Source of the DNA: an uncultured Clostridium sp.
Lineage (GTDB): Bacteria; Bacillota; Clostridia; TANB77; CAG-508
Direction: 5' to 3'
Assembly: GCA_947368535.1 (NCBI GenBank)
Contig: CANBHY010000002.1
Location: 95,536-159,535, forward strand
Length of the DNA stretch: 64,000 nt
The notes under the pieces were generated by a model that was given only the letters and a program-made list of their open reading frames with translations, was not told the DNA's origin and ran no database searches. The translations under genes were made by a program, and so were the position numbers. Position 1 is the stretch's first letter; each line of letters opens with the position of its first letter. Positions 6,611 through 52,198 of this stretch are shown in pieces.

Positions 6611-6750
6611 GTTCTTTCCTCTTCTTAATTCTTTTAAAATTGCTACACATATCATATCTTAATTTTCCAATTTAATCAAGCTTTTCACTTGACCAAATTG
6701 CTTCTTAGATATATTATAATTACAACTTACTAATAGATTGGAGATATTAA

Positions 6751-12240: not shown

Positions 12241-14682
12241 TTAAATTTTATTAACTTTAGCCACTATAACTGTCATGTCGTCTTTTAAAACTCCATATCC
12301 ATTATCAATAGCTTCATTTATTATAATATCTGCCATTTTTTTAACATTATTTGTATTAATTTCTTTTATCATTTTTATAAGCCAACTATCATCTTGTTGC
12401 TCTGGATTAGACTCTACAATACCATCACTGCACATAATATAAATGTCTCCATCTTTCATATCTCTATCATAAACCGTAAAATCAACATCATTTAATATTC
12501 CTAACGGTAATGAATTAGAATCAATTGTCTCTAACGCTTGCTTATTTTTTATATATGTTTTACAAGCACCATTCTTAATAAATTCAGCTACACCATTATA
12601 AAGATCAAATATCGCAACATCCATAGTAGCATAAATCTCTTCTGTAGAAACTTTAACTGTAGAATTTATCAATTCCATAGAATCTTCCTTTTCAAATCCT
12701 GCAGTTAATGTTTGTCGAAGCATTTTTGCAACTATTTGACTAGATTTTTTAGCTTCTGCACCAGCTCCCATTCCATCACTTAATGCCACTAAATGCTTAT
12801 TATCATCTAATTTAAATTGTATACAACTATCACCAGAAATATCATTTCCTGATTTAGGCAGCCTAGCTAACCCAAGTTGTACAGTATACTTGTCCTCCGA
12901 AATATATTTTTGCAAATATAAATTAGAATCTAAATGAGCTGTATCTTTTTGAAAAACAATTTTTTCTTTACATATCTTAGTTAAAATTGATTCTATGCAT
13001 TTTATCTTATCTTTTTCTTTTATTTGCTTTTCAAATAAAATATCTATAAAATACTTTTTACTTTTATTTTGCTTAACACGGACTTCCTTTACTAAAATAC
13101 TTTTCTGTTTCATCAATTCTTTAATTTCTATTTCTTGTTTTTCAAATATATTATCTTTATTTTTTGATAAATCAACTGCTATATCTGAAATTGCTTTTGA
13201 AACACCTTTTAATTGTTTAGAAATTGATTTTTTATTTTCGTTTAAACGTTGTTTCCATTGAAAGTTCATTTCGTTAATTCTATATGTTCTATTAACTATT
13301 CTTACGACTTGATTTACATCTTCCCTAATAGCCTGATTTGCATAAATATCAAGAATTTCATTTTTTTCTTCATATAGACTAACCATATCTCTTTCTGAAA
13401 TTTCTTCTTTTTCTGCAAGTATCATATATATTTTTTCAATAATATCATTATTAGTATCAATTAAATCTTCATACAAAATATTATTCGGAAAACTATCTAA
13501 GTTATTTAATAAGTCTTCAACAAAAGCCTCTTTACTCCTATTAATATTTTCTATCTCGAGAGCTATTTCTTCATCTTTTAATCCATATGTTTTAGCTATT
13601 TCTTTAACTGTTTTTGAAAGATGTTTCAATTTAGCACCTGCATCTTCACTTTCAGCTAATCTATGTTCTTCTCTTGCTTCAAAAAATTTATTTTTTCCTA
13701 TTAAACCTTCAATATCAATTTGGATATACTTAGGAACAAAAAATATAGCAATTCCTGCAATTAACAATTCCTTATATAACAATACTTGTATAGTATTTCC
13801 GGTTGTTAAATATGATATTAGTGCATTTCCTACTAAAAATCCTGCAACAACACCAATTCGTCCTAATCTATTTACTGCACCTGCTAATAAACCTGATATT
13901 GCAAATGCTAAAACTTGTATAGGTGTAGCAGAACCAATTATTCCTAATATTAAGCCAATAGAAACACCTATAGTACTTCCGACAAGCAATCCATTTTTCC
14001 ATGCTAAAATTAAAATCAAAAAAACAGAAAGTACATTTGAAAGTGAAATTCCATATATTCTATAGCTATTTACACTTACAGCAGCAATTGCTGTAAGCAT
14101 TGTAGCCCCAATAATTTCTTCTATTGTAAAAGCTGATTTTAATCCAAAATTCTCTAACACACCTATGCTATTAACAAAAATTTTATAAAAAACATATGTA
14201 AAAACAATATTTAAAACTGCTACTACTACATCATAAACAAGTAGCACATCTGTTGACAATTTTATAGCATGTACTACTATACAAGCAATAATTAAATTTT
14301 TACCTAATTTAGCAATTTCATTTCTATCATCTTGAATATATGGCTTAAAAAACACTATCGTAAATAAAAAGATTAATACTTTCAAAAAATACATTAAAAA
14401 ACCAGGTATTCCTTGTGAAATAAAAACTCCTAATGCAGTAGCTACTAAAACTGGACCTGCTGGTATAACACTACTACACGCAGCTACAAAAAAAGCAAAT
14501 GCAAATGGTGCTATTCCTTCTCTTAATACTACAGTAGAAACTAAAAAAGATAAAATATAAATAATAATATTTTGAATACTAATTAAATCTTTTATTTTTT
14601 CTAAATTATATTTTTTATTTTCTTTAACATCCTTATTATTTATAGCAATATTATCTGTCAAATTTTGAAACATCCTTACCAC
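12241..14682 (-). CDS. spoIIE: stage II sporulation protein E (membrane PP2C phosphatase)
   Basis: About 10 N-terminal TM helices. C-terminal PP2C domain (SGDSCIQ...ALSDGMGAGAEA). Length 813 aa. Confidence 0.85.
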   Translation of the reverse strand: MVRMFQNLTDNIAINNKDVKENKKYNLEKIKDLISIQNIIIYILSFLVSTVVLREGIAPFAFAFFVAACSSVIPAGPVLVATALGVFISQGIPGFLMYFLKVLIFLFTIVFFKPYIQDDRNEIAKLGKNLIIACIVVHAIKLSTDVLLVYDVVVAVLNIVFTYVFYKIFVNSIGVLENFGLKSAFTIEEIIGATMLTAIAAVSVNSYRIYGISLSNVLSVFLILILAWKNGLLVGSTIGVSIGLILGIIGSATPIQVLAFAISGLLAGAVNRLGRIGVVAGFLVGNALISYLTTGNTIQVLLYKELLIAGIAIFFVPKYIQIDIEGLIGKNKFFEAREEHRLAESEDAGAKLKHLSKTVKEIAKTYGLKDEEIALEIENINRSKEAFVEDLLNNLDSFPNNILYEDLIDTNNDIIEKIYMILAEKEEISERDMVSLYEEKNEILDIYANQAIREDVNQVVRIVNRTYRINEMNFQWKQRLNENKKSISKQLKGVSKAISDIAVDLSKNKDNIFEKQEIEIKELMKQKSILVKEVRVKQNKSKKYFIDILFEKQIKEKDKIKCIESILTKICKEKIVFQKDTAHLDSNLYLQKYISEDKYTVQLGLARLPKSGNDISGDSCIQFKLDDNKHLVALSDGMGAGAEAKKSSQIVAKMLRQTLTAGFEKEDSMELINSTVKVSTEEIYATMDVAIFDLYNGVAEFIKNGACKTYIKNKQALETIDSNSLPLGILNDVDFTVYDRDMKDGDIYIMCSDGIVESNPEQQDDSWLIKMIKEINTNNVKKMADIIINEAIDNGYGVLKDDMTVIVAKVNKI

Positions 14683-18596: not shown

Positions 18597-19202
18597 ATGA
18601 AATTTAAATCAATACTTTTAATCTTTTTATTATTTATTATTTATTTCACTTTTAATTCATTTTCATATTCTCGCTCAATATCAAACAATCTTGAAGAAAA
18701 CTTATTTAGATTACGTGTTGTAGCAAATAGTGATTCAGAAATAGATCAAAATTTAAAAATACAAGTACGTAATAATATCTTAAATTACTTATCACAATTT
18801 AACTTTTCTAATAAAACAGAAACTATTTCACATCTACAAAATCATAAATCTGACATAGAAAATATAATATCAAGAACCATTACAGACAATGGGTTCGACT
18901 ACACTTTTGAATATGAAATATCTAATTCTTTTTATCCTACTAAAAAATATCATACAGTAACTTTACCTTCTGGAAATTATGATGGTTTACAAATAAAACT
19001 TGGAAAAGCTACTGGTCAAAACTGGTGGTGCATATTATTCCCGCCAATGTGTCTTATAGATTCGTCAACTTGTAAGCTTGAAGAAGATTCAAACGCTTTA
19101 TTATCTAGTAATCTAAATAATGAATCTAATAATGTTATTCAATCTTCTGAATTTAATTACAAATTTAAATTTAAAATCATTGATTTTTTTAATAATTTAT
19201 AA
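18597..19202 (+). CDS. spoIIR: stage II sporulation protein R
   Basis: Signal peptide, conserved RLRVVANSDS and QNWWCILFPPMC motifs. GGAG RBS. Confidence 0.8.
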   Translation: MKFKSILLIFLLFIIYFTFNSFSYSRSISNNLEENLFRLRVVANSDSEIDQNLKIQVRNNILNYLSQFNFSNKTETISHLQNHKSDIENIISRTITDNGFDYTFEYEISNSFYPTKKYHTVTLPSGNYDGLQIKLGKATGQNWWCILFPPMCLIDSSTCKLEEDSNALLSSNLNNESNNVIQSSEFNYKFKFKIIDFFNNL

Positions 19203-29825: not shown

Positions 29826-29856
29826 ATGGATAACTTAGGTTATCCATTTTTTTTCG
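29826..29856 (+). terminator. rho-independent terminator of the activase gene
   Basis: TGGATAAC ttag GTTATCCA followed by TTTTTTTT. Confidence 0.75.
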
Positions 29857-31039
29857 CATTCTAGATAAAAATTTTTGTTTTCAAAATTATAAATATAAAT
29901 TTTATATAAATATCTTTAAAACATCAAGCATTTTTATAGAAAATCCCCTAAATATTTAAATATTACATCCACTTTTTCTATCCTATTTAACTCTTAATTT
30001 TATATATATAACAATTTTATCTTCAATCATTATATCATCTTTGTCTTTCACGTACTGTTTTTGTTTTGTTACATAAAAAATTGGCATCTAAAAAAAATTT
30101 TTCATTTTTCTTTTCAACATAAGTATTATTTTTAAAAGTTTAAAATAATTAATTTTTATCAGTGACTTTATATTAAAAAAAATAAAAAGCAAAATGTTTT
30201 AAAAAAAATACCCTAAATAATTCAATTTAAGAACATTCTTTTAATCTTTAAAAGCTAGTAAACATGGGAAATTTGTGCTAAAAAGATTATTTCAAAAATA
30301 TTTAAAATGTTGCAAACAAAAATCCTTGCAAAAATCGAATATTATATTTTAATGATAATTAACATTAACCTTTTGACAAAAATCAATTAAAACGGAAAAT
30401 AAAAGGTCAAATAATTTTATCTCAAAAAAATTTATGGACAACTCATCAAATCATAAAAATAGTGTAGCTTATATTTTTTTATCCTCTAAAATTTTTTCTC
30501 TATCATTTTTTATTAGTAATTATTTTCTTCAAAATTGCTTTTACTCTAAAAAATTTAATAAAAATAGCAATTATTACATAAAAAATATAAAATAATTATT
30601 ATAAAAATAATTAAATAATAAAAAATAATAATTATTCTTACTTTTTCGCATAAAAATACGATTTTTAAAGCATTTATTACAGTTAAATTCGAACATCTAT
30701 CAATATCAAATTTTCACTCTTTTAAAAACAAATTTCAGTAAAAAATAATTTTTTTCCTTAAATAGCAAAAAAAATTTTTTTCTCGATCAAAAATCCGAAA
30801 TTTTTTTAGTCAATATGATTTTCCCATATATCTCATCTAAATTACTAATTTAAAAAAAGCTATTATTCTAATCATTCATTTTAAAATTTATAAAATCTCA
30901 TCAAAAATATAAAAATATCACCATATACAAAATAGAAAAACTAAAATAATGCTTAATAAAATATAATCGCTATATTATAGGAAATAAGCAAACTAGCAGA
31001 TTTTATATAATTATGGATATGCTTCAAAAATAATATTAA

Positions 31040-31054
31040 TTGCCAAAAAAGTAG
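31040..31054 (-). repeat. 15-nt motif copy (reverse complement CTACTTTTTTGGCAA)
   Basis: Read directly from the sequence: TTGCCAAAAAAGTAG. Confidence 0.6.
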
Positions 31055-32458
31055 TTGTGCTCCTTTCTCTACATTCAGCATAGAAATGACAATTTAAAAT
31101 AGATAAATAAGTCATCTACTTTTTTAGAAATCTTGTTATTAAAATGAAATGACAAATCAAAAATGCACATTTTATAAAAATTTTATTGCTCTTATAAAAC
31201 AAATAGCATATTTTTATTTTTTAAAATAAAAACTCTACTTTTCATGAATTTTAAATTACAATAAAATAATATTTATAAAAAACGTATGTTTGTTTTTGAA
31301 TATTTTTTAAAAATATAGCCTTAAATTCTTCATTTATGTTATGTATACTTATTATTTTTTAAAAAATATCTAAAAATTCAACCTTAGTTATACCAAGCAT
31401 TTCAAATTTTATATACTTTAATATTCTTTCATCTACATTTATATTTACATAATTCTTAATAATATCAAATTACATCAATTTTTTTGATTACCCGATCTTC
31501 TCTATCATATACATATATTAAGTCAAAATATATTTTAAAAAAGACTAAAAATTAAAATTTTTATTTTTCTCTATGCATTTTTAAAAAATTTTAATTTTTA
31601 GACATACTTACTATTTTTTTAAATTATCCTACAAATTTAAAAATATTATAAAAAAGATAATTCTTAAAAAAATCACGTCAAAATTATCCATTTTTTAAAT
31701 TTATTCATTTTTATAATATTCAATCAAATATAGGATTTACAAGCTGTATACGTTTTTTATATAAATGTAATAATGAACTTTTCAAAATTGTTTGCAAAAA
31801 ATAAAATGAAAATCAGAGAAATATTTTTAGTTATTTTTGAGTCAATCAATAATAAAATTTTTTAATTAATTGGCAATTATTTTTATTTAAAATACATACC
31901 TATGACAAAAATAACTTAAAATATAATCCAATTAAAAAATACTTTAACTTTTTACCTTATTTTTAATTTTTATATCTATTTATTCAAAAATACTAAATAT
32001 TACACTAATATAGCATAATATTCAATTAATAATTTATTTATTTATTTTTTTAATGTAAACTTACTAAAAAAAGCTGCTTTTTTTGGTAAAAATCTATAAA
32101 ATTCATATATAGTATTACACTAAATATGATAATTTTTAAAAATTTTTCTAAAAATATACAAATAACACTACTCATTAATATATAAACCTACATTAAATTT
32201 TTTATATACCAAAACAATATATTTTTTAGTCATACGTTAATCAATCCTCTTTTTATGCTTCAAAAAATATTTTTTAATATTTTTTTCTCGTTTTCATTTT
32301 TAAAAATGCAAAATACATATTTTATTTATAAAAAAAAGTTTTAAAAAAATTATGCTTTTTTTCACTTTTAATGTCCAACTTCAATTCATTAAATATGCGG
32401 AAATAAAGATAATTCAAAAAACAGTATATTTTTATTATATATATTTTTTTTAATTTTA

Positions 32459-32473
32459 TTGTCAAAAAAGAAG
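32459..32473 (-). repeat. 15-nt motif copy (reverse complement CTTCTTTTTTGACAA)
   Basis: TTGTCAAAAAAGAAG. Confidence 0.6.
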
Positions 32474-34053
32474 TTTCAAATTATAACTGAATTAAAACTT
32501 TAATAGACAAAAAAAGAAGCATCTCATTTCAGTTACAAAACTAATTTCTATTCTTATTAAAGTAAATGACAAATAAAAACTGTAAAAAAGCAGTAATATT
32601 TTTTAATATATCTTTTTATCATTTTAAGAATGAAAATCGAAATTTGAAGCATAATTTAAAAATTACAAATTTTTTTCCAAAAAATAAATATAAAAAAATA
32701 AAATTTATTTTTTTATATTTATTTTTATTAAAATCTATTTTCCTCATTTTTGCTCTATTTTTTTATTTTTGAAAAATAATATCTTTAAGCTATCTATTAT
32801 TTTTAATTTGTTTCGCTTACCGCTCTAAGAGATAGTTAGCTAATCTTCAATTTTTAATCTCTCATGCAAATATATTTTTTAGACTAATTGCCAATATTTC
32901 CTTAAAATACTCTTTTTATAAAATATTACACTCTATTTTGACCAATTTATTTTCTTTTTATTATATAAAGATTTATAAAAATTTATAAAAATTTATTTAT
33001 ACAAAATCACCAATTTTTATAAACTAATTATTATTATTTAGGCAAAATATATTTTTTATCAATTTTTATTCTTTATTCTATAAATTTTATATATTTATAA
33101 ATTTGATAAAAATTTTTTATAATTCTTTACATAAAAATAATAATTTAAATTTTAATAAATCAAAGGAAAAAAAGATCAAAAATTAATTATTTTAAATTTT
33201 TTTAAGCTTAGGGTAAAACCGCAAAATCTTCGGAATATCAACCAAAAGAGCTATTTAATATATTTGTAAAAATTCTCCAAAAAAAATTCTTTGCAAAAAA
33301 ATAAAAATAAAAATAAAGCTAAAAAATATAAAACATAGTGACAATTAATTTATATTCCTCTCATATAAGATGTCAAACATTTTTATAAATTATAATTAAT
33401 GTAGACAAAGTATTTATATTTATTTATTAATAAAATCATCTTAGCTAAAAATTTTAACCCTATTTCATTTTTATAATTCAGATCATATAATTTCATATCT
33501 AACATAAATTTAATGGTAATAAAATGAAATATTACAAAAAAAAACTATTAAAATTATATTTTCAATTTAATTTGAATTAAAATATATACAAAAAGTCAAA
33601 AAATGATATTTTCAAAAAAATATAAAAAATAAAATTAATTAAATATTACAAAAAAAATATTATTTTTAAATAAATATTACCATTTTTTTAGTATCAAAAA
33701 GATGTTTAAATATACTACTTAAAAATTTATAAATTATATACAAATCATCACCTATTTTATGTAACCTAAAATTAATATTATTAGCAAAACATTTTAATAA
33801 ATTTTTATTTAATTTTTTTGTGTCCAAATAATCAACACAAATTTTTAAATATAGTTTTAAAAATTTTAAAAATAACTTTTTTTAATATTACAATTAGATT
33901 TAAAAAATGTACACATTTAAAAAAAATTTATTGAAAGACAAAAAATAGTAAAAATCAGTAATATTATTTTTTTTTGTTTTCTGTGAAAGTTGGGATATAA
34001 GTGATAAAGCCGTTTTAATAAATAAAATGAAAAATTTACTTTATTTTATAGCT

Positions 34054-34068
34054 TGTCAAAAAAGGAGA
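34054..34068 (-). repeat. 15-nt motif copy (reverse complement CTCCTTTTTTGACAA)
   Basis: TTGTCAAAAAAGGAG. Confidence 0.6.
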
Positions 34069-35129
34069 TTACTAATATAAGAAAAATGTATACTAATTGG
34101 ACAAAAAAACATTTAAAAATTTAAAAGAAAATATATTAATTAAAATAATTATTCAATTGAACAGACAAAATCTTTCTAAAAAAAGATTAAATATTCCCCA
34201 AAATGCTTTTCAGTATCGAATATATGTTCTCCACTCTTTAAAGTTAAATAAAATAGTAGTTTTATTTAACTTTAAATCAAAAAAAATTAATAATTCTAAT
34301 GTTACAATACACAGTTTTTTAAAAAATATTTTTTTCTATTTTTTTAATTATTTATCTATTTTTTTTAATTTTTTTTAATTATTTTTAATTATTTTTAATT
34401 ATTTAATTTATTATTATAAATAATTATTAATTTATAATAAAATATCTAATAATTATTTATTTAAATATAAAAAAAATCATAGCTAGATATCCTAAATAAA
34501 TTTTTTAAACTATATGCATGAAACGCATGTGAAAATTTTTAGCCCTTATTTTCGTTTTTAATCAATTTTATTAAAAAAAAGTACCAATAATATTAATATT
34601 ATTAATAGATATTTACGTATTATAATGAAAAATTGATAAAAAAAAGAACCCAAATCATAAATTAATTGGATTCTACAATAAAATAAAGCTCATTTATGTG
34701 TAAATACATAAATCATCTCTCATAATTATCAATACTTTAATTATATTTTATAAATTAACTGTATAACAATTGCTTATTAAAATATAATTATGTAAAAATA
34801 ATTATTGATTAATAATCATTTTTTAAACTATGAAAAATAATTAAATAATTAAAATAAAATATTATTGATTAATTTAATAAATATTTAACATTTAATTCTA
34901 TAAAAATTAAATCATATTTATTAAATTTTTATAGAATTATTCTAAAATTATTAGTCAATAATAATGTTTTATTTGTATCCATTTTCCTGTTTCAACACAC
35001 TATACATATTTCACATTTTTTGTCTATATAATATAAACTTATGCAAAAAGTATTGTTTTTTAAGAAAATTTTATATGAATTTGATCATTTTTTTGTCTGA
35101 TATTAAAATTTTTTTATTAATTATTATCT

Positions 35130-35144
35130 CTACTTTTTTGACAA
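35130..35144 (+). repeat. 15-nt motif copy CTACTTTTTTGACAA
   Basis: Exact. Preceded 38 nt upstream by TTTTTTTGTCTGA. Confidence 0.65.
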
Positions 35145-36139
35145 ATATTAAAAGTTCAGCTTTGTGATTATTATCTATATTTATTAATATATCTGCATTA
35201 TATAATATTCGTACAAATTTATTGTTATAGATTTTTAAATTTAAAACTACATTTTCTTTTAATTATTTTCCACTATTTTATAAAATTTCCTAAAAATGAA
35301 TTTTTTTTCTTATAATCTTATATAAATTTGTATTCAAAAAACAATATTTTTTATTATCATCATTTAGTATTAATAACTTAGTAAATAATTGTATTTTTTT
35401 TACAAAAATTATAATAAATTATCCACAGATAATATCAAACAAGTTTTCTCTTATCAAAAATATTTTTTCTAATTATTTCAAATATATTTTTATTTTTTTA
35501 TATTTTTTATTAATTATTTTTAATTTATTTTTATTTTTTATTTATTTATTTTTATTTATTTATTTTTATTTATTTATTCCATGCACAAATTTATATATTT
35601 TTTACTTCAAAAATTAAAACCCTGGTTCCAAATTAATTCCAATTTATATATATTAATCTTTCTAAAATTTTTTTACATTATATCTCTTTTTATAGTCCGG
35701 ATAAAAAATAAAATTCCAAATTTAAATATTATTTTTTTCATACCTCTCTCTTACTATAGTATCACATACAAATTTTAATTCATATATTACTAATCATTTT
35801 AAATATTTTAATCTCTCAATTTATATATTTTTAAATTAATTATTTATATTTTTTCAATAATTATTAAAAAAATAATTAAAAATAATAAAAAAATAAAAAT
35901 AATTATTTTATTTATGAAAATTTTTCGTAATATTAAATTTTATATTATCAAAATATGTTTTTATTGATTTTATTGATCAGATCTATAAATTTTAAAATTA
36001 TGTACTAAATTATTATTTTATATAGTTTTTTTGTCTAGTTGGCAGCTGAATAAACATTTTGAGCATACAATTAATCATTTAATGTCAAAAAATGCTGTTT
36101 TTTTGTCTAGCTACGAAATAATTTTAATATTTCACAATT

Positions 36140-36154
36140 CTACTTTTTTGACAA
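36140..36154 (+). repeat. 15-nt motif copy CTACTTTTTTGACAA
   Basis: Exact. Preceded by TTTTTTTGTCTAG at 36095 and 36026, and by an inverted TGTCAAAAAAT at 36074. Confidence 0.65.
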
Positions 36155-37083
36155 AAGTTTTTACTGTTTTTTTATTATTGATGCATGTATTCATTGATAT
36201 ATAGATGTTTGACGTCATATATGTTTAAAATAGATTTTGTTTTTTGTAAAATTTTCAAATTTTCCTTCCTAATATATTTTATATTAAAAAATTTTTTTCA
36301 CTTTTATAGCTTTTAATCCTAAAAAAAAGAAAATTTTTTGAAAATTCCTTCCAAAAAATTCAATTTCATATTTTCACAAATTTCTTTACTTTCGCCATTA
36401 AAAAAACTATTATTCTAACCTTTAAGAATAATCAAATAATTAATAAAAGTATTACAAAAATAAAAAGATATTTTTACTAATTATTTTTATTTTTTTATTA
36501 TTTTTCTAAAATAAATTAATTAATTCTATTTTTTTATTTAATTTTTTTATTTAATTAAAATATATTTTCACTCATTTAATAAATTGCACTTTGATTTAAT
36601 ACCTTTTAAAAATTTTTTTATAAATAAGTTTCATAATTATAGAAATAGTAGATCAAGTTGAACTATACTTTATCAATATTTATATTTTTCTATATATTTT
36701 TCCATTTCTTTAAAACATTGAACTTATTTTTATTATAATATTTTTTATATAATTATAAAATTAAACTTATATAATAAAATATTTAATATTATTTTTCCAT
36801 AATTAATTAAAATATTATTTAAAAATAAAATAATAAAATAAAATTATTAATCTTTTATTTTATATTTATATAATATTTATTTATTATTTATGATACTGTA
36901 ATTTTCTCACTTCTTTTCAATAAAAATACACTATTTATTATCTATAACATTTCGGTTTAAAAAACTAGTATTTTTGTCTTTTAAATTATATATTGTTCTC
37001 ATTGTAACTTTTTTATATTATATTTCAATAAAAATATAATATTTTCTTGTCTTATATTTATTTTTTTTAACCATATTTGTTAT

Positions 37084-37098
37084 CTACTTTTTTGACAA
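37084..37098 (+). repeat. 15-nt motif copy CTACTTTTTTGACAA
   Basis: Exact. Confidence 0.65.
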
Positions 37099-38099
37099 TT
37101 TTTATTCACATCACATTAAGTGTTCACCATATTTCCTTTGAAATTTGTGAGTTTCATGAATTTTATCTTAGAAAATTTATATATTTTTCAAATTCTATTA
37201 TTATATTCATCATATTTTAATTTATAAAAATTCTTAAAAACTTAATATTCCGTTTTAAAAAACAATTTTTAGAAAATTTACTAAGAATTTTTTAATAAAA
37301 TTTTACTATCTAAATTTCTCCAATTTTAAGGCCTTTTTTATATCAAAATTTATAACAATATAAATTATCTTTTTACTATATTAATATTTCATTTTTTTAA
37401 ATTTAATATTTTTATTTTTCATATTTTTTTAATATTTTTCTATTTATTATTTATATTTATTCTTTATTTTATAATTAATTTAAATTAATTATTTATTTAT
37501 TAAAAATTGTATATACTTTTGTATACATAATTATTTTTAAGATCAAAAATTGATCTTTTTTTTAATATTTTCTTATATGAAAATTTATAAAAGAAGATTT
37601 ATTTATACTTTTTTTATAATATTGGAATAAAACTTCTAAAATTTTAAAAATATCTTTTTATTTTTAAACTAAATTTTTATAAAAAAAGCAAAATTATATT
37701 TAGATTTTTAATAATACAAAATAAATTTTACTATTAATAAAAAAAATATCTAAAAAAATAATAATAAATTATAAAAAATTAAAATATTTTTTGTAATAAA
37801 TTTTAATTTTTATTTTCATCAATAAATTAAATTTTGAATATATTTTTATAATATTATTGGAATAAATTTCATAATTTTATGCAACTTTGAATACTCAATA
37901 ACATAACTTTTTTTACTTTAGAAGTTTTCTTCTGGCTAAATTTTCATTCACACTTTTTCACAATTCTTTCTACAATACTTCAGAGTATTTTGTCTTATGT
38001 ATATTTATTCTTCTATAACAGAACTTATATAATTCAATTTTTTATATTTTTTAGTTCATTTTTTGTCTAATATAAAATATTTTTGTTTATTTCTTAAAT

Positions 38100-38114
38100 C
38101 TACTTTTTTGACAA
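38100..38114 (+). repeat. 15-nt motif copy CTACTTTTTTGACAA
   Basis: Exact. Preceded 36 nt upstream by TTTTTTGTCTAA. A possible -10 TATTAT lies 17 nt after the embedded TTGACA. Confidence 0.65.
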
Positions 38115-39273
38115 ATATTTTTTAATATCCTATTATATATATTCGATATAAGTCCCATATTTAAAGTATTTTGAACTATTACTATACTTTTTAATTACTA
38201 CCTTTTCTTAATTTTTATTAAATAATTTATAATTTTTAAAATTATAAATTATACACTTAATCAAATTCGATTTATTTTTAAAGAAATTTAAAACACATTA
38301 TTCAAATTTTCTAAAAACTTTCTATCTTTTATTAAAAATCTCATATGTATATGTTTTCAAAACACATTCGTACATATGTTCTTAATATTTTTTAGTCAAA
38401 TTGATATGTTATAGTATATTCTTATTAATTACTTTTTTTAATTAAATATAACAACATATTTTGATATTTATTTTAATACATAAAAACTAATAGATTATAT
38501 TTTTATTTTTCTATATTTTATTATTTATTTATTATTATTTTTTTTATATTTATCTTTATTTTAAATATATTTTTTATTTTTTAAAAAAATATATTTTTTT
38601 ATTCCCTCAACTAATATAAAATTTTTCATTTTTTCCATATTATTCTTTATTTTAAATTTATAAATCAAAACTTTAAAATTTTTTCCTAAAATTTTTAAAT
38701 AAAGATACTTATTTCTTACAAATTTAATTTGATATTTTCTAATCTTTTTTCATAATCAGCAATTTTAAAAAAATAATTAAAGAATTTTTTTTTATTTTTT
38801 TAATAAATCCATTTTTTTATATTAACATTCAATTCATTTTTTATAAAATATAAATAATTATTCCTAATTTTTAATATATTTTTTTGTTTTTTTATTTTTA
38901 TATCAATTTATAAAATATTTATTAATTTAAATACTTTTTAAAAAATTAATTACTACGCATTTATTTTCTTAGTTTCAAATTTTGTACTACTCATTCTTCT
39001 TAAATTTGACCAGTTATATATATATGAATTTATATAAGATTTACTTGTCATTCTGTCAATATTTCTCTAACTATAATTAATACTTTATTTATGTTAGTCG
39101 ACAAATACCAAACATATTTTCTTAACTACTTCTATAAAATTTATTTACCCTCATTCTATTTTTATACTTATTTCCCTTTTAAATATATTACTTTTTCTTA
39201 CTTTAGCCATTTTATTAGTTACTTACTCTAATTTTCTTGACTAAAAAATTTATATTTTTTAATTTTCTCTAAA

Positions 39274-39288
39274 CTACTTTTTTGTCAA
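39274..39288 (+). repeat. 15-nt motif copy CTACTTTTTTGTCAA (variant)
   Basis: One mismatch. Preceded by TTCTTGACTAAAAAA. Confidence 0.55.
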
Positions 39289-41080
39289 ACATTTTTTAAA
39301 TAGTATCTTTAATAATATTCTATAACTCCCTATTTATAAAGATTTCATAAGTATACTCAATATAATCATGATCCATTTTTTCTATTTTAAGCATGCTTTT
39401 ACATTAATTTTAAAATTATAAATTATAAAAACTCTCTTTTTAAAAAAAATCTACTAATACAACTGCAAAGAAATTTCTAATCTAACTTTAAACATATTTC
39501 TAATCTCAAATTTTTTTTTGTCGTTTTTTCATTTATTCGAATTAAAAACGCAACCTAGTCAAATTGATAATAATTTATTCTTATCTTATTCATTTTTTAT
39601 TTCATTACTGCGAACAAATGTATTCGCATACATCTTTGATTAAAAATTTTTTTCTTCAGATAAAACTATTCTCTTTTATAAATATTCTGTATAGTTTTTA
39701 TTTAAAAACATTTTTTATTATTTATTTTATTTTTTGATATTTATTTCCTTATTTAAGTTTTTCAACGCATTATTTTCGTTTTTTTTTTGATTTTTATAAA
39801 AATTTCAAGTAATTATATTCCAAATTTCTATCAGTAAATAGTCTAAAATAATAATTTATTATATTTTTTACTGTTTATTTTATTATTTGATTATAAAAAC
39901 ATTTATAAATAAAAAATAAAAATATTTATTTTTTATTTTTTTAAATGTAATATTAAATGTATTTCATTTATTATTTATATTTTATATTAATAAATATCAT
40001 ATTGATCTATTTAATATGTTTTTTTATATTAATAAAAAAACATTGTCTAAAACATTAAAAATATCTTTTTTTAATGCTCATTTTTTATATTTTATTGTCT
40101 ATTATCTTAATATTTTTCCATTTTTTTCTTTCTACTTATTTGTCAATGAATTTTTGCCATTAAAAAACGCATTTAATATAAATCCTCTAATATCAACACT
40201 TTAATACTTATTTATATATTTTTTCTTAATATTTTTATACCAAACTTATTTATTCATTTAATCTTTCATTAATTTTATTAAAAATTTTCTTTTTTAAGCC
40301 TCTAAAAAAATATAAAAAAATTTACTAATCTACTTCTCAAATTAATCAATTTTTTTTATGCTATTTTTCACATACTATTATTTAATTATTCTTTTTTGAT
40401 ATTATAATTTCTAATTTTCATGTAATATTTTCCATATCTTTTATCTTTATTTTTTAATTAAATTTTATAATTACAAAATAAATTTCATTTATTTATTTTA
40501 TTTTTTTATATTTTTTAAATATTGATATATCAGCAAAAAATTAATTTAAAATTATTTATTAATTATTTTTTCGATATTTTTTTAATTAATTAATATTATT
40601 AAAATATTTACTTTTCAATATGTAATATACCTCTTATTTTCCTTTATTTAAAAGCATTCTACGATGTAACAATTAACATTTAAAAATTTATTTTAATTTT
40701 ATTTTTTTAATTATTCATGAAATTATTAAAAAATATTTTTTAATAATTTTTAAAATTAACTTTTCTATTTTTAAAATTCACATTTTATACACAAAAAAAT
40801 ATAAAATAATTTTAAATAAAAAATTTATTTTATATTTTAATATTATTTCCTATTTTTTTTATATTTAGTTTTTTAATATCAATTTACGATAAATATATAT
40901 CATTTTCCAAGCCTCTAAAATCGTCATATTTTGATTTTCAATATAAACAAATAATATATGTCATATTAGTATATATTTATATTATTTTTGGATTCTCGTA
41001 GCTTCTATATTATTTTTTAAAATTAATACATAATAAACAAAATATATAAAAAAAAAGATAGTACATTCTTGTACTATCTT

Positions 41081-41172
41081 TGGCGGAGATTGAGGGATTT
41101 GAACCCTCGCGGCCCTAAACGAACCCTAACAGTTTAGCAAACTGTCCCCTTCAGCCACTTGGGTAAATCTCC
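41081..41172 (-). tRNA. tRNA-Ser (anticodon GCU)
   Basis: The reverse complement reads GGAGATTTACCCAAGTGGCTGAAGGGGACAGTTTGCTAAACTGTTAGGG...GGGTTCAAATCCCTCAATCTCCGCCA. Anticodon loop is TT-GCT-AA. Long variable arm, T-loop GGTTCAAATCC, encoded CCA. Confidence 0.85.
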
Positions 41173-41211
41173 GTATAATTATAAAGCTAGATAGTATTTC
41201 ATATCTAGCAT

Positions 41212-41303
<92 letters not shown>

Positions 41304-41356
41304 GTGAAGAACATTAATAATTTAACACATTAAACTATAAATGTCAATATACTTTT

Positions 41357-41836
41357 TTATATTTTTTTCAACTCTTTTGCTTTATTTAAGGCACTTATCT
41401 CTTCCTCTGATAAAGTTTGTAAAGAATTACCATTCTCTATTCTTTTAGCATATACATTACTAGAAGATCTGCCATATACAGAGTTTATAATAAACCCATT
41501 ATCTTTATTATCTAATAAAGCAATTGCAAAACTCAACTTACTTCCAACATCATCAAAAGCATCATATTTTACTATTCCAATATTTTGAAAGCATTCATTT
41601 AACTGTTTTTCAAGGCTTTTGTAATTTGATTTTATAATTTTGTTTTCCTCATTTACATTATTTACCATTTTTTCTATTTCTTTAAACGTATTCTCTATAT
41701 TTTCGTCAGAATTAAATTTGGATATAAATTCAGAATAATGTTTTTCTATATTTTTTAGCTTAAAAATAAATAATAATATAATAGCAGTTAACACTACATT
41801 AACTGCTATTGATCCTATTAAAATAGCACTTTCCAT
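41357..41836 (-). CDS. DUF4446-like membrane-anchored protein (conserved neighbour of parB in Clostridia)
   Basis: N-terminal TM helix and a coiled-coil segment. C-terminal region has a VKYDAFDDVGSKLSFAIALLD...NGFIINSV pattern. Confidence 0.5.
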   Translation of the reverse strand: MESAILIGSIAVNVVLTAIILLFIFKLKNIEKHYSEFISKFNSDENIENTFKEIEKMVNNVNEENKIIKSNYKSLEKQLNECFQNIGIVKYDAFDDVGSKLSFAIALLDNKDNGFIINSVYGRSSSNVYAKRIENGNSLQTLSEEEISALNKAKELKKI

Positions 41837-43488: not shown

Positions 43489-43639
43489 AATAATCCCTCC
43501 AATCTTTCTTTATTATAATATAAAAATTATAATCCTCTGTCAATAAAATTTATAATTATTTTACCCATATTTTTATTTTTTTAATATTTTTATCCTCAGA
43601 TTTTTAAATTTTTTAAAATATTTATACACAAAAATGTGA

Positions 43640-43700
43640 AAATGATAAAAAATTATCCACAGATTATCAACATTTTATCAACAGGTTATCTGTGGAACAT
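43640..43700. promoter_or_regulatory. DnaA-box cluster between parA and rsmG
   Basis: Perfect TTATCCACA at 43653-43661. Two TTATCAACA boxes (one mismatch each) at 43664 and 43675. TTATCTGTGGA at 43686. Confidence 0.55.
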
Positions 43701-43714
43701 TATTTTTTTCATTT

Positions 43715-44434
43715 TCATTTTAATGGTTCTTTAATAGGTTTTCCTTGTTTTCTTGGGTATATTTGTTCGGTATGTTTTTCCTTTAAAATAACTATTATAC
43801 TGCGTCCATTCCCATTTAATTCATATTGTATTTTCTTCTCTATTTTGCCTCCTAAAATCCTAATTGCATTTTTCGATTCTTCTAATTCTTTATCCACATC
43901 TGGTCCTTTTAAACATATACATTTTCCACCTTTTTTTAAAAATGGTAACATATATTCCACTAAAGTTGTCATATTTGAAACAGCTCTAGAAACTACAATG
44001 TCATATTTTTCTCTATATTTTTCATCATGTGCCAAATCTTCTGCTCTACTATGAATAGCAATAATATTATTTAAATTTAATTTTTCAATTGTGTCATTCA
44101 TAAAATTTACTTTTTTATTAACCGCATCCAATAAAGTAATATCCATGTCATTGTTAACAATTTTTATAGGAATTCCTGGGAATCCTGCTCCCGAACCTAA
44201 ATCTAACATTTTATTTCCTACAATTTCATCTTTTATAACTATTGAATCAATAAAATGTTTTATAACAATGTCTTTTTTCTCTTTTATTGCAGTTAAATTT
44301 ATTTTTTCATTCCATTCTATCAAATTATTCATATATAAATAAAATAATTCAATTTGTTTTTCTGAAAGATTTATATTATTTTTCTTTGCTTCATTTTTAA
44401 TAAAATCTTTAATATCTTCCATATTACTCTCCAT
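43715..44434 (-). CDS. rsmG: 16S rRNA (guanine527-N7)-methyltransferase
   Basis: SAM-binding [12 protein letters not shown] motif. Position immediately downstream of mnmG. Confidence 0.85.
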
Positions 44435-50500: not shown

Positions 50501-51856
50501 TTGTTAGATAAAAACGAACTTTTAAATCAAGCAAAAGAGCTTTTAAAAAATGAGATGACAAATATATCATATGCAACATGGATTAAAACTTTAGAAATAG
50601 GAAACATATATGATAATAAAATTGAACTAATAACAACAAATGCAATGCAAACAGATGCAATTAAATCTAGATATTGTGATTTAATTGTTAATACTTTCAA
50701 TTTTCTAACAAATAAATCTTGGCAATTAGAAATTATCGATTCATCTGATAGTTCTAATATAACAAGTGCTCAAGAAGCTTTAGATAATTCATTTGATTCT
50801 TTAACTTCTAGTCCAGAATATAGTAAAACTTCCTTAAATCCAAAATATACTTTTGATACCTTTGTAGTAGGAAATAATAACCGATTTGCTCATGCCGCAG
50901 CATTAGCAGTTTCTGAAGCACCATCATCTATGTATAATCCATTATTTATATATGGGGGAGTTGGTTTAGGAAAAACTCACTTAATGCAAGCAATCGGAAA
51001 TGAAATACTAAAAAGGGATTCTTCTAAAAAGGTATTATACGTAACATCCGAAGCATTTACAAATGAATTAGTAAATGCCATTAAAGATGCTAATTATAAA
51101 AACGAATTATTTAGAAATAAATATAGAAATATAGATATTTTATTAATTGATGATATACAATTTTTTGCTGGAAAAAATACAGCTCAAGAAGAATTTTTCC
51201 ATACTTTTAATACATTACATCAAAATGGTAAACAAATAATTCTTTCTAGTGATAAACCACCAAGAGATATTGCTTTATTAGAAGATAGATTAAAATCTCG
51301 TTTTGAATGGGGATTAATAGCAGATATATCAATGCCAGATTATGAAATGAGATTAGCAATATTAAGAAAGAAAACTCAAATGGAAGGCATTTTAATAGAT
51401 GACGATATTCTTTCATTAATTGCCACAAAAATAGATTCAAATATTAGAGAATTAGAAGGAGTATTAAACAAAATACTAGCCTATACATCATTAACTCATA
51501 GTCCAATAACAATCGAAGTAGTAGAAAAAGCAATAAATGATGTTACTTTACAAAAAGAAAATATTATTTCTGCAGACTATATTCAAGATGTAGTAGCAAA
51601 TTATTTTAAAATAGATAAAAAAGACATGGTATCAGCAAAAAAATCAAATGACATCGCATATCCAAGACAAATAGCTATGTACCTTTGTAGAACAGTGGGA
51701 CAAATGTCTTTCCCTAGAATAGGAAACGACTTTGGGGGAAGAGATCATACAACGGTAATGCATGCTTTCAAAAAAATAGAAAAAGAAATAAAAGAAAACA
51801 CAAATACAAAATTAATTGTGGAAAGTGTTAAAACAATAATTACAAACAAAAAATAA
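50501..51856 (+). CDS. dnaA: chromosomal replication initiator protein DnaA
   Basis: AAA+ Walker A (GGVGLGKTHL) and Walker B (LLIDDIQF). C-terminal DNA-binding domain (YPRQIAMYLCR...TVGQ...IGNDFGGRDHTTVMHA). TTG start 11 nt after an AGGAGG RBS. Confidence 0.9.
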   Translation: MLDKNELLNQAKELLKNEMTNISYATWIKTLEIGNIYDNKIELITTNAMQTDAIKSRYCDLIVNTFNFLTNKSWQLEIIDSSDSSNITSAQEALDNSFDSLTSSPEYSKTSLNPKYTFDTFVVGNNNRFAHAAALAVSEAPSSMYNPLFIYGGVGLGKTHLMQAIGNEILKRDSSKKVLYVTSEAFTNELVNAIKDANYKNELFRNKYRNIDILLIDDIQFFAGKNTAQEEFFHTFNTLHQNGKQIILSSDKPPRDIALLEDRLKSRFEWGLIADISMPDYEMRLAILRKKTQMEGILIDDDILSLIATKIDSNIRELEGVLNKILAYTSLTHSPITIEVVEKAINDVTLQKENIISADYIQDVVANYFKIDKKDMVSAKKSNDIAYPRQIAMYLCRTVGQMSFPRIGNDFGGRDHTTVMHAFKKIEKEIKENTNTKLIVESVKTIITNKK

Positions 51857-52198
51857 ATTTGATAAAACTTATATATCAATTTTATCGAATTTTTTATAAA
51901 AAAAGGTGTTTTACGAACAAAAGTATTATCAAAAAAATTCAATTTGTTCCTACGGAAGAGCAAGAAAAGATATCAACAGATTAGTGTTTAAAACGTGTTA
52001 AATTTCTGTTTATAATCAACATATGCACATAAAAAGTTTAATAATGTGGATAAATTTATTTTTTATTCACAGGTTTATAAACATCAAATTTTCTGCGGAT
52101 ATAAACAATAAACAGACTTTTCCACAGAATCCACACCACCTAATACTAATACTACTATATATATTTATATTATTTTATAAAAAAAGGAGTTTGAAAAA
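51857..52198. promoter_or_regulatory. oriC: dnaA-dnaN intergenic DnaA-box cluster plus AT-rich DNA-unwinding element
   Basis: TGTGGATAA (perfect box, reverse orientation) at 52045-52053. TTATTCACA at 52063. TTTTCCACA at 52117. AATCCACAC at 52128. Then a pure A/T tract (CTATATATATTTATATTATTTTATAAAAAAA) immediately before dnaN. Confidence 0.7.

What the first reader, a model, noticed from the sequence alone, without database searches (positions are those of the whole stretch)
34340..34470. Short tandem repeats and AT palindromes at the orientation-switch point of the motif array
Between the last leftward (34054) and first rightward (35130) motif copies lies an (AATTATTTTT)n tandem at 34371-34410. 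A palindromic A/T stretch follows (TTATTATAAATAATTATTAATTTATAATAA). Pure A/T tandem repeats flanked by divergent binding-site arrays are the organisation of DNA-unwinding elements at replication origins. This region is separate from the canonical oriC at 51857-52198, so it could be a relic or secondary origin. It could equally be a slippage-prone junction of an old insertion.
Basis: partly seen in the sequence, partly recalled or inferred. Interest (0 to 1): 0.5.

Follow-up and report, generated by a model that had tools for sequence, protein, structure and literature searches.

The report
Variable AT repeat, not an origin
The A/T tandem repeat is real, but it is a length-variable slippage tract rather than a second replication origin, and it sits where two opposed sets of a conserved motif meet inside an unexplained 11-kb gene-free, 14%-GC array beside the parAB genes of an uncultured gut Clostridia bacterium.

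Summary
**Observation: confirmed.** TRF finds a 10-nt-period tandem at 34328-34432. It lies in an 89-nt pure A/T run, which is beyond chance (P=0.0005). This is nominally the least stable duplex in the window.

**Origin reading: fails.**
- GC skew falls straight through the site and turns only at dnaA.
- A-T skew flips with terminus-like sign.
- There is no DnaA-box cluster.
- The palindrome is no better than shuffles.
- Similar tracts recur in each neighbouring ~1-kb unit.

**What is really there.** An ORF-free array of 13-15% GC spans 29.8-41.05 kb, between the 3' ends of tRNA-Ser/DUF4446/parB and a BcrAD-type gene.
- It holds nine copies of a ~60-nt box (TTGNCAAAAAAG-N31-33-AGACAAAAAA). Six point away from oriC and three point back.
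- The boxes are under purifying selection: 1.8% variable against 8.5% for spacers.
- A second species keeps the same position and the same convergent layout.
- The switch interval is orthologous between species. It holds a unique conserved element, ATGTTACAATNCACAGTTTTTT (34299-34320), just before the tract.

The array's function is unknown. Box-bound promoter-like non-coding units are my best guess.

The parts
34328..34432 (.). The finding: a 10-nt-period A/T tandem tract, T-rich on the + strand. It is the A-rich tract module of the innermost '-' unit and lies 712-816 nt downstream of that unit's box at 35147.
   Evidence: TRF. Copy number differs by -10, -19 and -18 nt in strains L001, L002 and L003. 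The orthologous tract in species 2 is also length-variable.
34357..34445 (.). An 89-nt run of pure A/T. It contains the least stable 60-bp and 100-bp duplex windows of the 64 kb.
   Evidence: -87.2 kcal/mol per 100 bp; the next least stable windows, -88.8, -89.2 and -89.8, all lie in the same array. P=0.0005 against shuffles.
34396..34455 (.). Imperfect A/T palindrome with 26-nt arms (85% complementary) and an 8-nt gap.
   Evidence: Not better than shuffles (z=-0.29).
34299..34320 (+). Unique conserved element ATGTTACAAT[A/C]CACAGTTTTTT, single copy per array. It resembles a Gram-positive extended -10 promoter (TRTGnTAcAAT) reading into the tract. It also contains a weak DnaA-box-like 9-mer: cAATCCACA ancestrally, 7/9.
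   Evidence: Identical in all strains and in species 2. One match in the window at up to 3 mismatches, 0 expected.
29855..41053 (.). ORF-free array of roughly 1-1.6-kb units, 13-15% GC, lying between convergent flanking genes.
   Evidence: No ORF of 100 aa or more. GC profile. Only 3 of 20 ATG-ORFs of 25 aa or more are intact in all strains. No Rfam match at E<=1. Same position in species 2.
31037..31056 (+). Distal box copy, box 1 only, TTGCC variant. Orthologous to L016:19360.
32456..32518 (+). Distal box copy. Orthologous to L016:17277.
34053..34113 (+). Orthologous to L016:15741.
35084..35147 (-).
36096..36156 (-). Proximal box copy.
37038..37100 (-). Proximal box copy.
38055..38117 (-). 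Proximal box copy.
39229..39291 (-). Proximal box copy carrying the swap TTGAC...GTCAA.
40088..40149 (-). Proximal box copy, degenerate.
35460..35578 (.). Equivalent A/T tandem tract of the next unit. It includes the longest pure A/T run in the window (99 nt).
   Evidence: (repeat families D2, D8, D13).
41081..41303 (-). tRNA-Ser(gct) and tRNA-Ser(tga). They mark the right boundary of the array.
50501..52198 (+). dnaA plus the dnaA-dnaN spacer with DnaA boxes (52045-52126). This is the real origin region and the GC-skew minimum.

Best explanation
**What the tract is.** The (AATTATTTTT)n tract is a slippage-generated, strain-variable A/T simple-sequence module, not a DNA-unwinding element.

**Where it sits.** It belongs to the innermost unit of an ORF-free array of about 14% GC. 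That array expanded from the intergenic spacer between two convergent transcription units: parB-DUF4446-tRNA-Ser on one side and a BcrAD/DUF2229 gene on the other.

**What each unit contains.**
- A constrained head with three boxes: TTGNCAAAAAAG; then AGACAAAAAA 46-48 nt on; and usually a third AGACAAA 52-76 nt further.
- Roughly 1 kb of unconstrained A-rich spacer, which includes one short-period A/T tract.

**Layout.** Units on each side point the same way as the adjacent flanking genes, so the two sets converge at 34.1-35.1 kb. There a single conserved promoter-like element (34299-34320) sits directly upstream of the tract.

**Shown here.**
- The tract varies by unit multiples.
- It has homologues in every unit.
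- The boxes and the central element are under purifying selection while the spacers are not.
- Position and convergent layout are conserved in a second species.
- The site has no origin signatures.

**Inferred.**
- The boxes are protein-bound, sigma-A-type promoter-like sites driving A-rich non-coding transcription toward the centre.
- The tract itself has no sequence-specific role, being simply the most expandable part of the spacer.
For: **Slippage**
- Length differs by -10, -19 and -18 nt among strains that are 95-98% identical.
- The orthologous tract in species 2 differs by -11 nt.
- The 89-nt A/T run is far beyond composition.
- Tract period differs between lineages: 10 nt here, and 7 nt (AAAAATY)n in L024. 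That argues against a conserved helical-phase function.

**Module of a repeated unit**
- Similar tracts lie 540-800 nt downstream of every '-' box.

**Constraint pattern**
- Boxes are 1.8% variable against 8.5% for the rest of the array (Fisher p=3.5e-9). Neighbouring third codon positions are 3.6% variable.
- Species 1 and 2 differ at 26% of third codon positions. Spacers are nevertheless unalignable, while the three distal boxes are one-to-one orthologous, down to box variants.
- A sequence-only model finds the box nine times in the array and nowhere else in the 64 kb.

**Non-coding**.

**Expansion in place**
- The relative L022 has the same flanking genes with only 1.2 kb between them. That spacer is 10% GC and holds two ~350-nt proto-units containing CTGATCAAAAAAGAAAT.

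**Polarity**
- A-T skew changes sign inside 34.25-35.0 kb, while G-C skew does not.

**Promoter-like reading**
- TTGNCA is invariant except at position 4.
- TAT lies exactly 17 nt later in 8 of 16 copies, against 0.9 expected (P<0.0005).
- The central element matches TRTGnTAcAAT.

**Not an origin**.
Against: **No transcription data.** The -10-like TAT mostly lacks the conserved T at -7. The L024 version of the box has no good -10. The promoter reading is therefore weak, and a purely DNA-level binding-site role fits equally well.

**The tract block is still alignable between species.** It aligns at 73.5% over 181 nt, unlike most spacers. Some constraint on having an A/T tract next to the central element cannot be excluded.

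**The tract is nominally the least stable duplex in the window**.

**Persistence is unexplained.** Keeping more than 10 kb of 'unconstrained' spacer in a small genome (related long-read contigs of 1.4-1.8 Mb), across species, implies that spacer length or composition is itself selected. My explanation does not account for this.
Confidence: 0.65

Rival explanations
1. **Secondary or relic replication origin.** The A/T tract is a DUE, opened with help from the adjacent weak DnaA-box-like site and/or transcription from the adjacent promoter-like element. The opposed motif arrays act as initiator-binding sites.
For: - Least stable 60- and 100-bp duplex in the window.
- A conserved element 8 nt upstream contains cAATCCACA (7/9 of TTATCCACA) and an extended -10-like sequence.
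- Repeats in opposite orientation on both sides.
Against: - No GC-skew inflection, and the A-T skew flips with the sign opposite to that at dnaA.
- One sub-consensus box, against clusters at the true origin and upstream of parA.
- No DnaA-trio or GC-cluster arrangement in the sequence.
- Repeats are about 1 kb apart, not iteron-like.
- No initiator gene.
- Tract length and sequence are not conserved.
- A dozen equally unstable tracts lie nearby.
- The array is nearly absent (1.2 kb, two proto-units) in relative L022, which has the same gene order.
Confidence: 0.04
2. **Chromosome-organisation element.** The three-box heads are binding sites for a DNA-binding protein, for example a nucleoid-associated, SMC/ParB-related or sporulation-specific factor. 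The long A/T spacers and the central A/T tract provide a flexible, gene-free platform next to parAB and oriC. Polarity converging on the central element matters for that function.
For: - Only the boxes and the central element are constrained.
- Fixed position beside parA-parB-DUF4446 in every relative examined.
- The convergent layout is conserved in both species with complete arrays.
- Boxes 1 and 2 form a TTGTC/GACAA inverted pair, with one swap that keeps complementarity.
- No canonical parS within the 64 kb.
Against: - No candidate protein has been identified.
- Box spacing varies (N31-33; third box +52 to +76), which is awkward for a rigid multimer.
- No excess 10-11-bp A-tract phasing compared with the coding flanks.
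- parS is also absent from the array-poor relative L022, so the array is not needed to explain its absence.
- Spo0A-box likeness fails at a contacted base.
Confidence: 0.2
3. **Transcription-convergence buffer.** The T-rich tract, which would be U-rich RNA for rightward transcripts from the 34053 unit or the central promoter, acts as a hairpin-independent pause or termination zone. It stops the two converging sets of units from reading into each other.
For: - The tract lies 270-380 nt downstream of the + box at 34053 and about 10-110 nt downstream of the predicted start of the central promoter-like element.
- No canonical terminators exist inside the array; they occur only at its two borders.
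Against: - Equivalent tracts occur inside the '-' sub-array, where they read as A-rich RNA and so cannot be U-tract terminators.
- No hairpin precedes the T-runs.
- Length is variable.
- Transcription itself is unproven.
Confidence: 0.08

Closest known systems
DNA-unwinding element of a bacterial oriC (DnaA boxes, DnaA-trios and an AT-rich region)
   Same: An extremely A/T-rich, low-stability segment with short tandem repeats, and one DnaA-box-like 9-mer nearby.
   Different: - No box cluster, no trios and no skew inflection.
- Length is polymorphic.
- Many equivalent tracts lie nearby.
- The genuine origin at dnaA, 16 kb away, is intact.
Simple-sequence (microsatellite-like) repeats that change length by replication slippage
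   Same: Head-to-tail short units, with copy number differing by about 1-2 units between near-identical strains, in otherwise unconstrained DNA.
   Different: It is not placed in a promoter spacer or ORF of a gene, so it is not a contingency locus. It recurs as a module of a larger ~1-kb repeat unit.
Opposed arrays of polar sites converging on a point (Ter/Tus or Ter/RTP fork traps; KOPS/SRS converging on dif)
   Same: - Two groups of an oriented motif face each other.
- A unique conserved sequence lies at the convergence point.
- That sequence superficially resembles an XerD arm: TTATGTTAcAA against TTATGTTAAAT (from memory, a lead only).
   Different: - It is located 16 kb from oriC, not at the terminus.
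- The motif is about 60 nt at roughly 1-kb spacing.
- The putative left (XerC) arm is not conserved between species.
- No Tus or RTP has been identified.
Integron cassette arrays and attC clusters without an integrase (CALIN)
   Same: Conserved sites of about 60 nt separate variable segments of about 1 kb, many without ORFs.
   Different: - The sites do not fold as attC-like single-strand hairpins (z from -1.3 to +1.0).
- Two opposed arrays.
- The 'cassettes' are collinear among strains.
- No integrase in the window.
Iteron-flanked plasmid or phage origins and archaeal ORB-flanked DUEs
   Same: Repeats in inverted orientation on both sides of an A/T-rich tract.
   Different: Spacing is about 1 kb instead of tens of bp. 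There is no adjacent initiator gene and no replication signature.

Membership tests
Chromosomal origin / DUE | Cluster of DnaA boxes next to the AT-rich region | tested here: not met
   clusters lie only at 43590-43683 and 52045-52126. Near the tract there is a single 6/9 (window) or 7/9 (other strains, species 2) match.
Chromosomal origin / DUE | GC-skew (leading/lagging strand) inflection at the site | tested here: not met
   G-C skew is negative throughout 29-42 kb, and the cumulative minimum is at about 50-52 kb.
Chromosomal origin / DUE | Lowest duplex stability in the neighbourhood | tested here: inconclusive
   nominally the least stable window (-87.2 kcal/mol per 100 bp). Ten or more windows in the same array fall within 1.6-6 kcal/mol of it.
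Chromosomal origin / DUE | Conserved DUE architecture among strains | tested here: not met
   length varies by 10-19 nt among strains; the repeat period differs between lineages.
Chromosomal origin / DUE | Initiation in vivo (marker frequency, 2D gels) | not testable with these tools
   No read-depth or experimental data are available.
Iteron-type origin | Closely spaced iterons plus an adjacent initiator gene | tested here: not met
   Box spacing is 858-1594 nt. There is no conserved ORF in the 11 kb.
Slippage-prone simple-sequence repeat | Tandem short units with copy-number polymorphism among close relatives | tested here: met
   TRF period 10. Differences of -10, -19 and -18 nt in three strains and -11 nt in species 2.
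Integron attC array | Sites fold as imperfect single-strand hairpins; integrase present; single orientation | tested here: not met
   ssDNA folding z-scores from -1.3 to +1.0. The two orientations are opposed. No integrase appears in the Pfam scans of window ORFs.
Fork trap (Ter sites) | Opposed polar sites located around the terminus, with a Tus or RTP protein | tested here: not met
   The geometry is opposed, but the locus is 16 kb from dnaA and the skew minimum. Whether the genome encodes a terminator protein was not tested, because only the window was scanned.
Spo0A-box cluster | Core TGTCGAA, with specific contacts to G2, C4 and G5 | tested here: not met
   Most box-1 copies read TGTCAAA (the rest TGACAAA, TGCCAAA or TGTCTAA), and none has the G at position 5. 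A G5A change cut C. difficile Spo0A affinity about 10-fold (PMC3485338). There is no perfect core in the array.
Sigma-A-type promoter | -35 TTGACA-like hexamer, 17+/-1 spacer, -10 TATAAT-like hexamer | tested here: inconclusive
   TTGNCA occurs in 16 of 16 copies. TAT lies at exactly 17 nt in 8 of 16, against 0.9 expected, but only 3 of 16 have TAnnnT. The generic promoter scan is at chance level in this DNA.
Sigma-A-type promoter | Mapped transcription start | not testable with these tools
   No transcriptome data.
Known RNA families (Rfam 15) | Covariance-model match | tested here: not met
   no match at E<=1 in 29.7-41.1 kb.
ParB centromere (parS) | 16-bp TGTTNCACGTGAAACA palindrome | tested here: not met
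   nothing within 3 mismatches in the window, and nothing better than 4 mismatches in the relatives' loci.

The most novel reading that the evidence does not exclude
The switch point would be the functional centre of a previously undescribed kind of bacterial cis-element.

**The element.** An origin-proximal array of more than 10 kb, gene-free and about 14% GC. Its polar three-box sites lie on fast-evolving ~1-kb spacers and converge on one conserved 22-28-nt element with an adjoining A/T tract.

**Distribution.** It is kept at the same place beside parAB-DUF4446-tRNA-Ser in two mouse-gut species of an uncultured Clostridia clade. Partial evidence (extremely AT-rich DNA at the same place, with box-like copies or own tandem units) comes from related metagenome lineages, some human-gut.

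**Possible role.** Chromosome organisation or segregation during growth or sporulation, or a set of regulator-titrating or non-coding-RNA units.
Probability: 0.3. Interest if true: 0.75.

Novelty: new variant of a known kind. Interest (0 to 1): 0.4.

Why it matters
**For the finding as posed, the result is deflationary.** This is not a second origin. Methods that look for origins by A/T richness, duplex instability or A/T-skew turns would be misled here. The site is the least stable DNA in the window and shows an A-T skew turn, yet it has no replication signature.

**The context is the interesting part.**
- The genome is small (related long-read contigs are 1.4-1.8 Mb), yet it keeps about 11 kb of non-coding DNA next to its partition genes.
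- Only the ~60-130-nt box clusters and one central element are held constant. The spacers turn over faster than synonymous sites.
- If the array has a function, it is a cis-element with no described counterpart, in a clade common in mouse-gut metagenomes, with related lineages recovered from human-gut samples.

**A practical point.** Short-read assemblies of the related lineages sampled (some human-gut, including Hadza) break 1.6-2.8 kb beyond DUF4446, inside this extremely AT-rich DNA. The locus is therefore systematically missing from MAGs.

Tried and rejected
- **Curved-DNA role.** A-tract autocorrelation and periodogram show no more 10-11-bp phasing in the array than in the coding flanks.
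- **Small proteins.** Only 3 of 20 ATG-ORFs of 25 aa or more stay intact in all four strains.
- **Structured RNA.**
  - No Rfam hit.
  - RNAalifold on 15 box regions gives -1.2 kcal/mol. Its only 'stem' is the 5-bp TTGTC/GACAA pair across about 41 nt.
- **attC-like hairpins.** Not supported.
- **Phage or plasmid origin.**
  - The box pattern is absent from IMG/VR.
  - blastn of 34.0-36.2 kb finds only a low-complexity hit in plasmids and nothing in phages.
- **parS or centromere.** No parS was found.
- **Spo0A boxes.** The core is mismatched at a contacted base.
- **dif or XerD site.** The right arm looks similar, but the left arm is not conserved between species. The locus is also at the wrong pole of the chromosome.
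- **Literature.** Searches for the box sequence, for DUF4446 and for large AT-rich intergenic repeats in Clostridia returned nothing relevant.
- **An error of mine.** My first genome contigs pattern had one N too many. It did still reveal species 2.
- **Complete arrays from human-gut relatives.** These attempts failed. Contigs end inside the AT-rich DNA. In the long-read genomes another element lies next to the BcrAD gene.
- **Organism name.** None obtained beyond 'uncultured Clostridia bacterium' from mouse-gut MAGs.

Full report
**1. Setting**

The window is from a sporulating Clostridia-class bacterium of about 27% GC.
- Its sporulation genes include spoIIE, spoIIR and a Germane-domain protein.
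- The organism is known only from mouse-gut MAGs and metagenomes (GCA_948515225.1, GCA_948771125.1 and JGI/ENA contigs).
- dnaA (50501-51856), dnaN, recF and gyrB follow each other on the + strand.
- rpmH, rnpA, yidC, jag, mnmE, mnmG, rsmG, parA, parB, DUF4446 and two tRNA-Ser genes run leftward on the - strand, down to 41081.
- The cumulative GC-skew minimum is at about 50-52 kb.
- Between the tRNA-Ser terminator (41054-41081) and the terminator of a + strand BcrAD/DUF2229 gene (ending 29820) lie about 11.2 kb with no ORF of 100 aa or more and 13-15% GC.

**2. The observation**

- The flanking motif copies are at 34053 (+) and 35133-35144 (-).
- TRF reports a 10-nt-period array at 34328-34404 and a 20-nt-period array at 34341-34432.
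- The exact unit AATTATTTTT occurs at 34377 and 34387.
- The tract sits in an 89-nt stretch without G or C. That length is reached in 0.05% of shuffles of the region.
- The A/T palindrome is real. As single-stranded DNA, however, the segment folds no better than shuffles (z=-0.29).
- By nearest-neighbour energies, 34369-34468 is the least stable 100-bp window of the 64 kb. The margin is small: -87.2 against -88.8, -89.2 and -89.8 for other windows of the same region, and -104 to -108 at the spacers flanking dnaA.

**3. It is not an origin**

- G-C skew is negative in nearly every 250-nt bin from 29.75 to 42 kb.
- The only turn at the site is in A-T skew, with a cumulative maximum between 34.25 and 35.0 kb. 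That sign change is opposite to the one at dnaA.
- DnaA boxes at one mismatch or fewer cluster at 43590-43683 (upstream of parA) and at 52045-52126 (dnaA-dnaN spacer). None cluster at 34.4 kb.
- No initiator gene, or any conserved ORF, is present.
- The tract is polymorphic.
  - Strain L001 has almost no substitutions in the left half of the array, up to about 36 kb, yet it lacks exactly one 10-nt unit.
  - L002 lacks 19 nt and L003 lacks 18 nt.
  - The orthologous tract in species 2 also varies, by 11 nt.

**4. The tract is a module of a repeated unit**

- The 11 kb contains nine copies of a box.
  - The box is TTGNCAAAAAAG(N)AG, then 31-33 nt, then (T/A)AGACAAAAAA.
  - Most units have a third AGACAAA 52-76 nt further on.
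- A sequence-only covariance model finds the box at 31037 (partial), 32456 and 34053 on the + strand.
- On the - strand it finds the box at 35147, 36156, 37100, 38117, 39291 and 40149. It finds none elsewhere in the window.
- Apart from the box, the units do not align with each other.
- Each - strand unit carries a short-period A/T tract 540-800 nt downstream of its box: 35460-35578, 36471-36557, 37372-37503 and 38494-38597.
- The finding's tract is the corresponding tract of the innermost - unit, at +712 to +816 from 35147.

**5. Evolution**

- A second species (DUF4446 90% identical, third codon positions 26% diverged) has the same arrangement.
  - The gene order is parA-parB-DUF4446-tRNA-Ser-tRNA-Ser.
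  - More than 9.5 kb of 13-15% GC, ORF-free DNA follows.
  - Four boxes point away from oriC, and then at least three point back.
- The three distal boxes are one-to-one orthologues, including the TTGCC variant of the outermost copy.
- Spacers between boxes are not alignable despite the modest synonymous divergence.
- Within the window's species, variable positions are as follows:

| Sequence class | Variable positions |
|---|---|
| Box positions | 1.8% |
| Rest of the array | 8.5% (Fisher p=3.5e-9) |
| Third codon positions of neighbouring genes | 3.6% |

- The boxes are therefore constrained. The spacers are not, or they mutate unusually fast.
- Relatives with 60-75% DUF4446 identity, some from human-gut (including Hadza) samples, also have 6-20% GC DNA after the tRNA genes.
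  - They carry box-like copies (L018:12182, L021:12368).
  - One, L024, has its own 0.82-1.03-kb tandem units with (AAAAATY)n tracts.
  - Their short-read contigs end inside this DNA.
- A more distant relative, L022 (47% identity), has the same flanking genes with only 1.2 kb between them. That spacer is 10% GC and holds two ~350-nt repeats containing CTGATCAAAAAAGAAAT.
- The array is therefore an in-place expansion of the spacer between two convergent transcription units. Units on each side share the orientation of the adjacent genes.

**6. The switch interval**

- The interval is orthologous between the two species. Window 34299-34478 aligns with L016 15368-15536 at 73.5% over 181 nt (E=2e-17), in the interval between the innermost opposed boxes.
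- At its left edge is a sequence found once per array and conserved in every strain and both species: ATGTTACAAT[A/C]CACAGTTTTTT (34299-34320).
- It matches the Gram-positive extended -10 form, TRTGnTAcAAT. It has no conserved -35.
- If active, it would read rightward into the tract.
- It also contains cAATCCACA, 7/9 of a DnaA box. The window and L001 have a derived A at 34309.
- I treat both likenesses as leads only.

**7. Mechanism**

Shown:
- The tract changes length in unit steps.
- It is one of a family of such tracts.
- The site has no origin signature.
- The boxes and the central element are the selected parts.

Inferred:
- The boxes are protein-bound promoter-like sites.
  - TTGNCA is invariant, with only position 4 free.
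  - TAT lies exactly 17 nt downstream in 8 of 16 copies, against 0.9 expected.
  - The -7 T is mostly missing.
- Sense strands are A-rich, following unit orientation. This fits transcription toward the centre.

A DNA-level role, as a binding-site array for chromosome organisation next to parAB, fits the constraint pattern equally well and is my main rival. What my explanation leaves open is why more than 10 kb of spacer is retained at all.

**8. Comparison with known systems**

- Membership was tested and not met for the oriC DUE, iteron origins, attC arrays, terminus fork traps, parS, Spo0A-box clusters and Rfam families. Details are in the membership table.
- The tract itself meets the definition of a slippage-prone simple-sequence repeat.
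- I found no described counterpart for the array in the literature held here.

**9. Verdict**

- The finding as interpreted, a secondary origin, is not supported. The tract is ordinary slippage DNA.
- Its location is not ordinary. It marks the conserved convergence point of an unexplained, selectively maintained non-coding array.
- Overall interest is moderate (0.4), and it rests on the context rather than on the tract.

Noticed in passing
window 43590-43683 (plus 43890-43898): A dense DnaA-box cluster in the rsmG-parA spacer, upstream of parA: five boxes within 94 bp, one of them perfect. A further perfect box lies about 200 bp away. The cluster is stronger than the three boxes in the dnaA-dnaN spacer.
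   Followed up: no
window 1-64000; loci L016, L018, L020, L022, L024, L026 and L028: No canonical parS (TGTTNCACGTGAAACA) within 3 mismatches anywhere in the 64-kb origin region, not even inside parB. The origin-proximal loci of relatives also give nothing better than 4 mismatches.
   Followed up: partly
window 40506-41053: The first ~550 nt of the array beyond the tRNA-Ser terminator are unusually conserved between species: 78.5% over a 908-nt alignment (40506-41398) that also spans the two tRNA genes. Shared islands include AAATATGACGATTTTA and TTTTTGTGTATAAAATGTGAA. This may be a small RNA or a regulatory region.
   Followed up: partly
window 56600-61200: A low-GC segment (17-24%) lies between gyrB and gyrA. 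It holds a TraG/VirB4-like P-loop ATPase (57902-59491) and ORFs with no Pfam match. It looks like a remnant of a conjugative element that splits the usual gyrB-gyrA pair.
   Followed up: no
window 34243-34276: A perfect 14-bp A/T-rich hairpin, AAAGTTAAATAAAA-TAGTAG-TTTTATTTAACTTT. It lies about 190 nt downstream of the + box at 34053 and about 25 nt before the conserved central element. No T-run follows it on either strand, and it is not conserved in species 2.
   Followed up: no
L024 11300-15701: A 60%-identity relative (GCA_947588885.1) has its own array of 0.82-1.03-kb units that are still up to 85% alike. Each unit has a TTTTGCCAAAAAGATAAAAAG box and long (AAAAATY)n 7-nt tracts. This indicates recent amplification and a different tract period.
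   Followed up: partly
L018, L020, L021, L029, L030 and L031 (contig ends): All short-read contigs of these relatives (some from human-gut samples, including Hadza) stop 1.6-2.8 kb after DUF4446, inside 6-20% GC DNA. The locus is an assembly breaker and is probably missing from most MAGs of the clade.
   Followed up: partly
window 39229-39291 (-): This box copy carries TTGAC in box 1 and GTCAA in box 2. The two-sided swap keeps the 5-bp TTGTC/GACAA complementarity. Two other copies (40149 and L016:19360) break it.
   Followed up: partly
window 3065-6655 (-): The smc gene lies about 45 kb from dnaA, on the same replichore as the array. spoIIE (12241-14682) and spoIIR (18597-19202) are also origin-proximal.
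   Followed up: no
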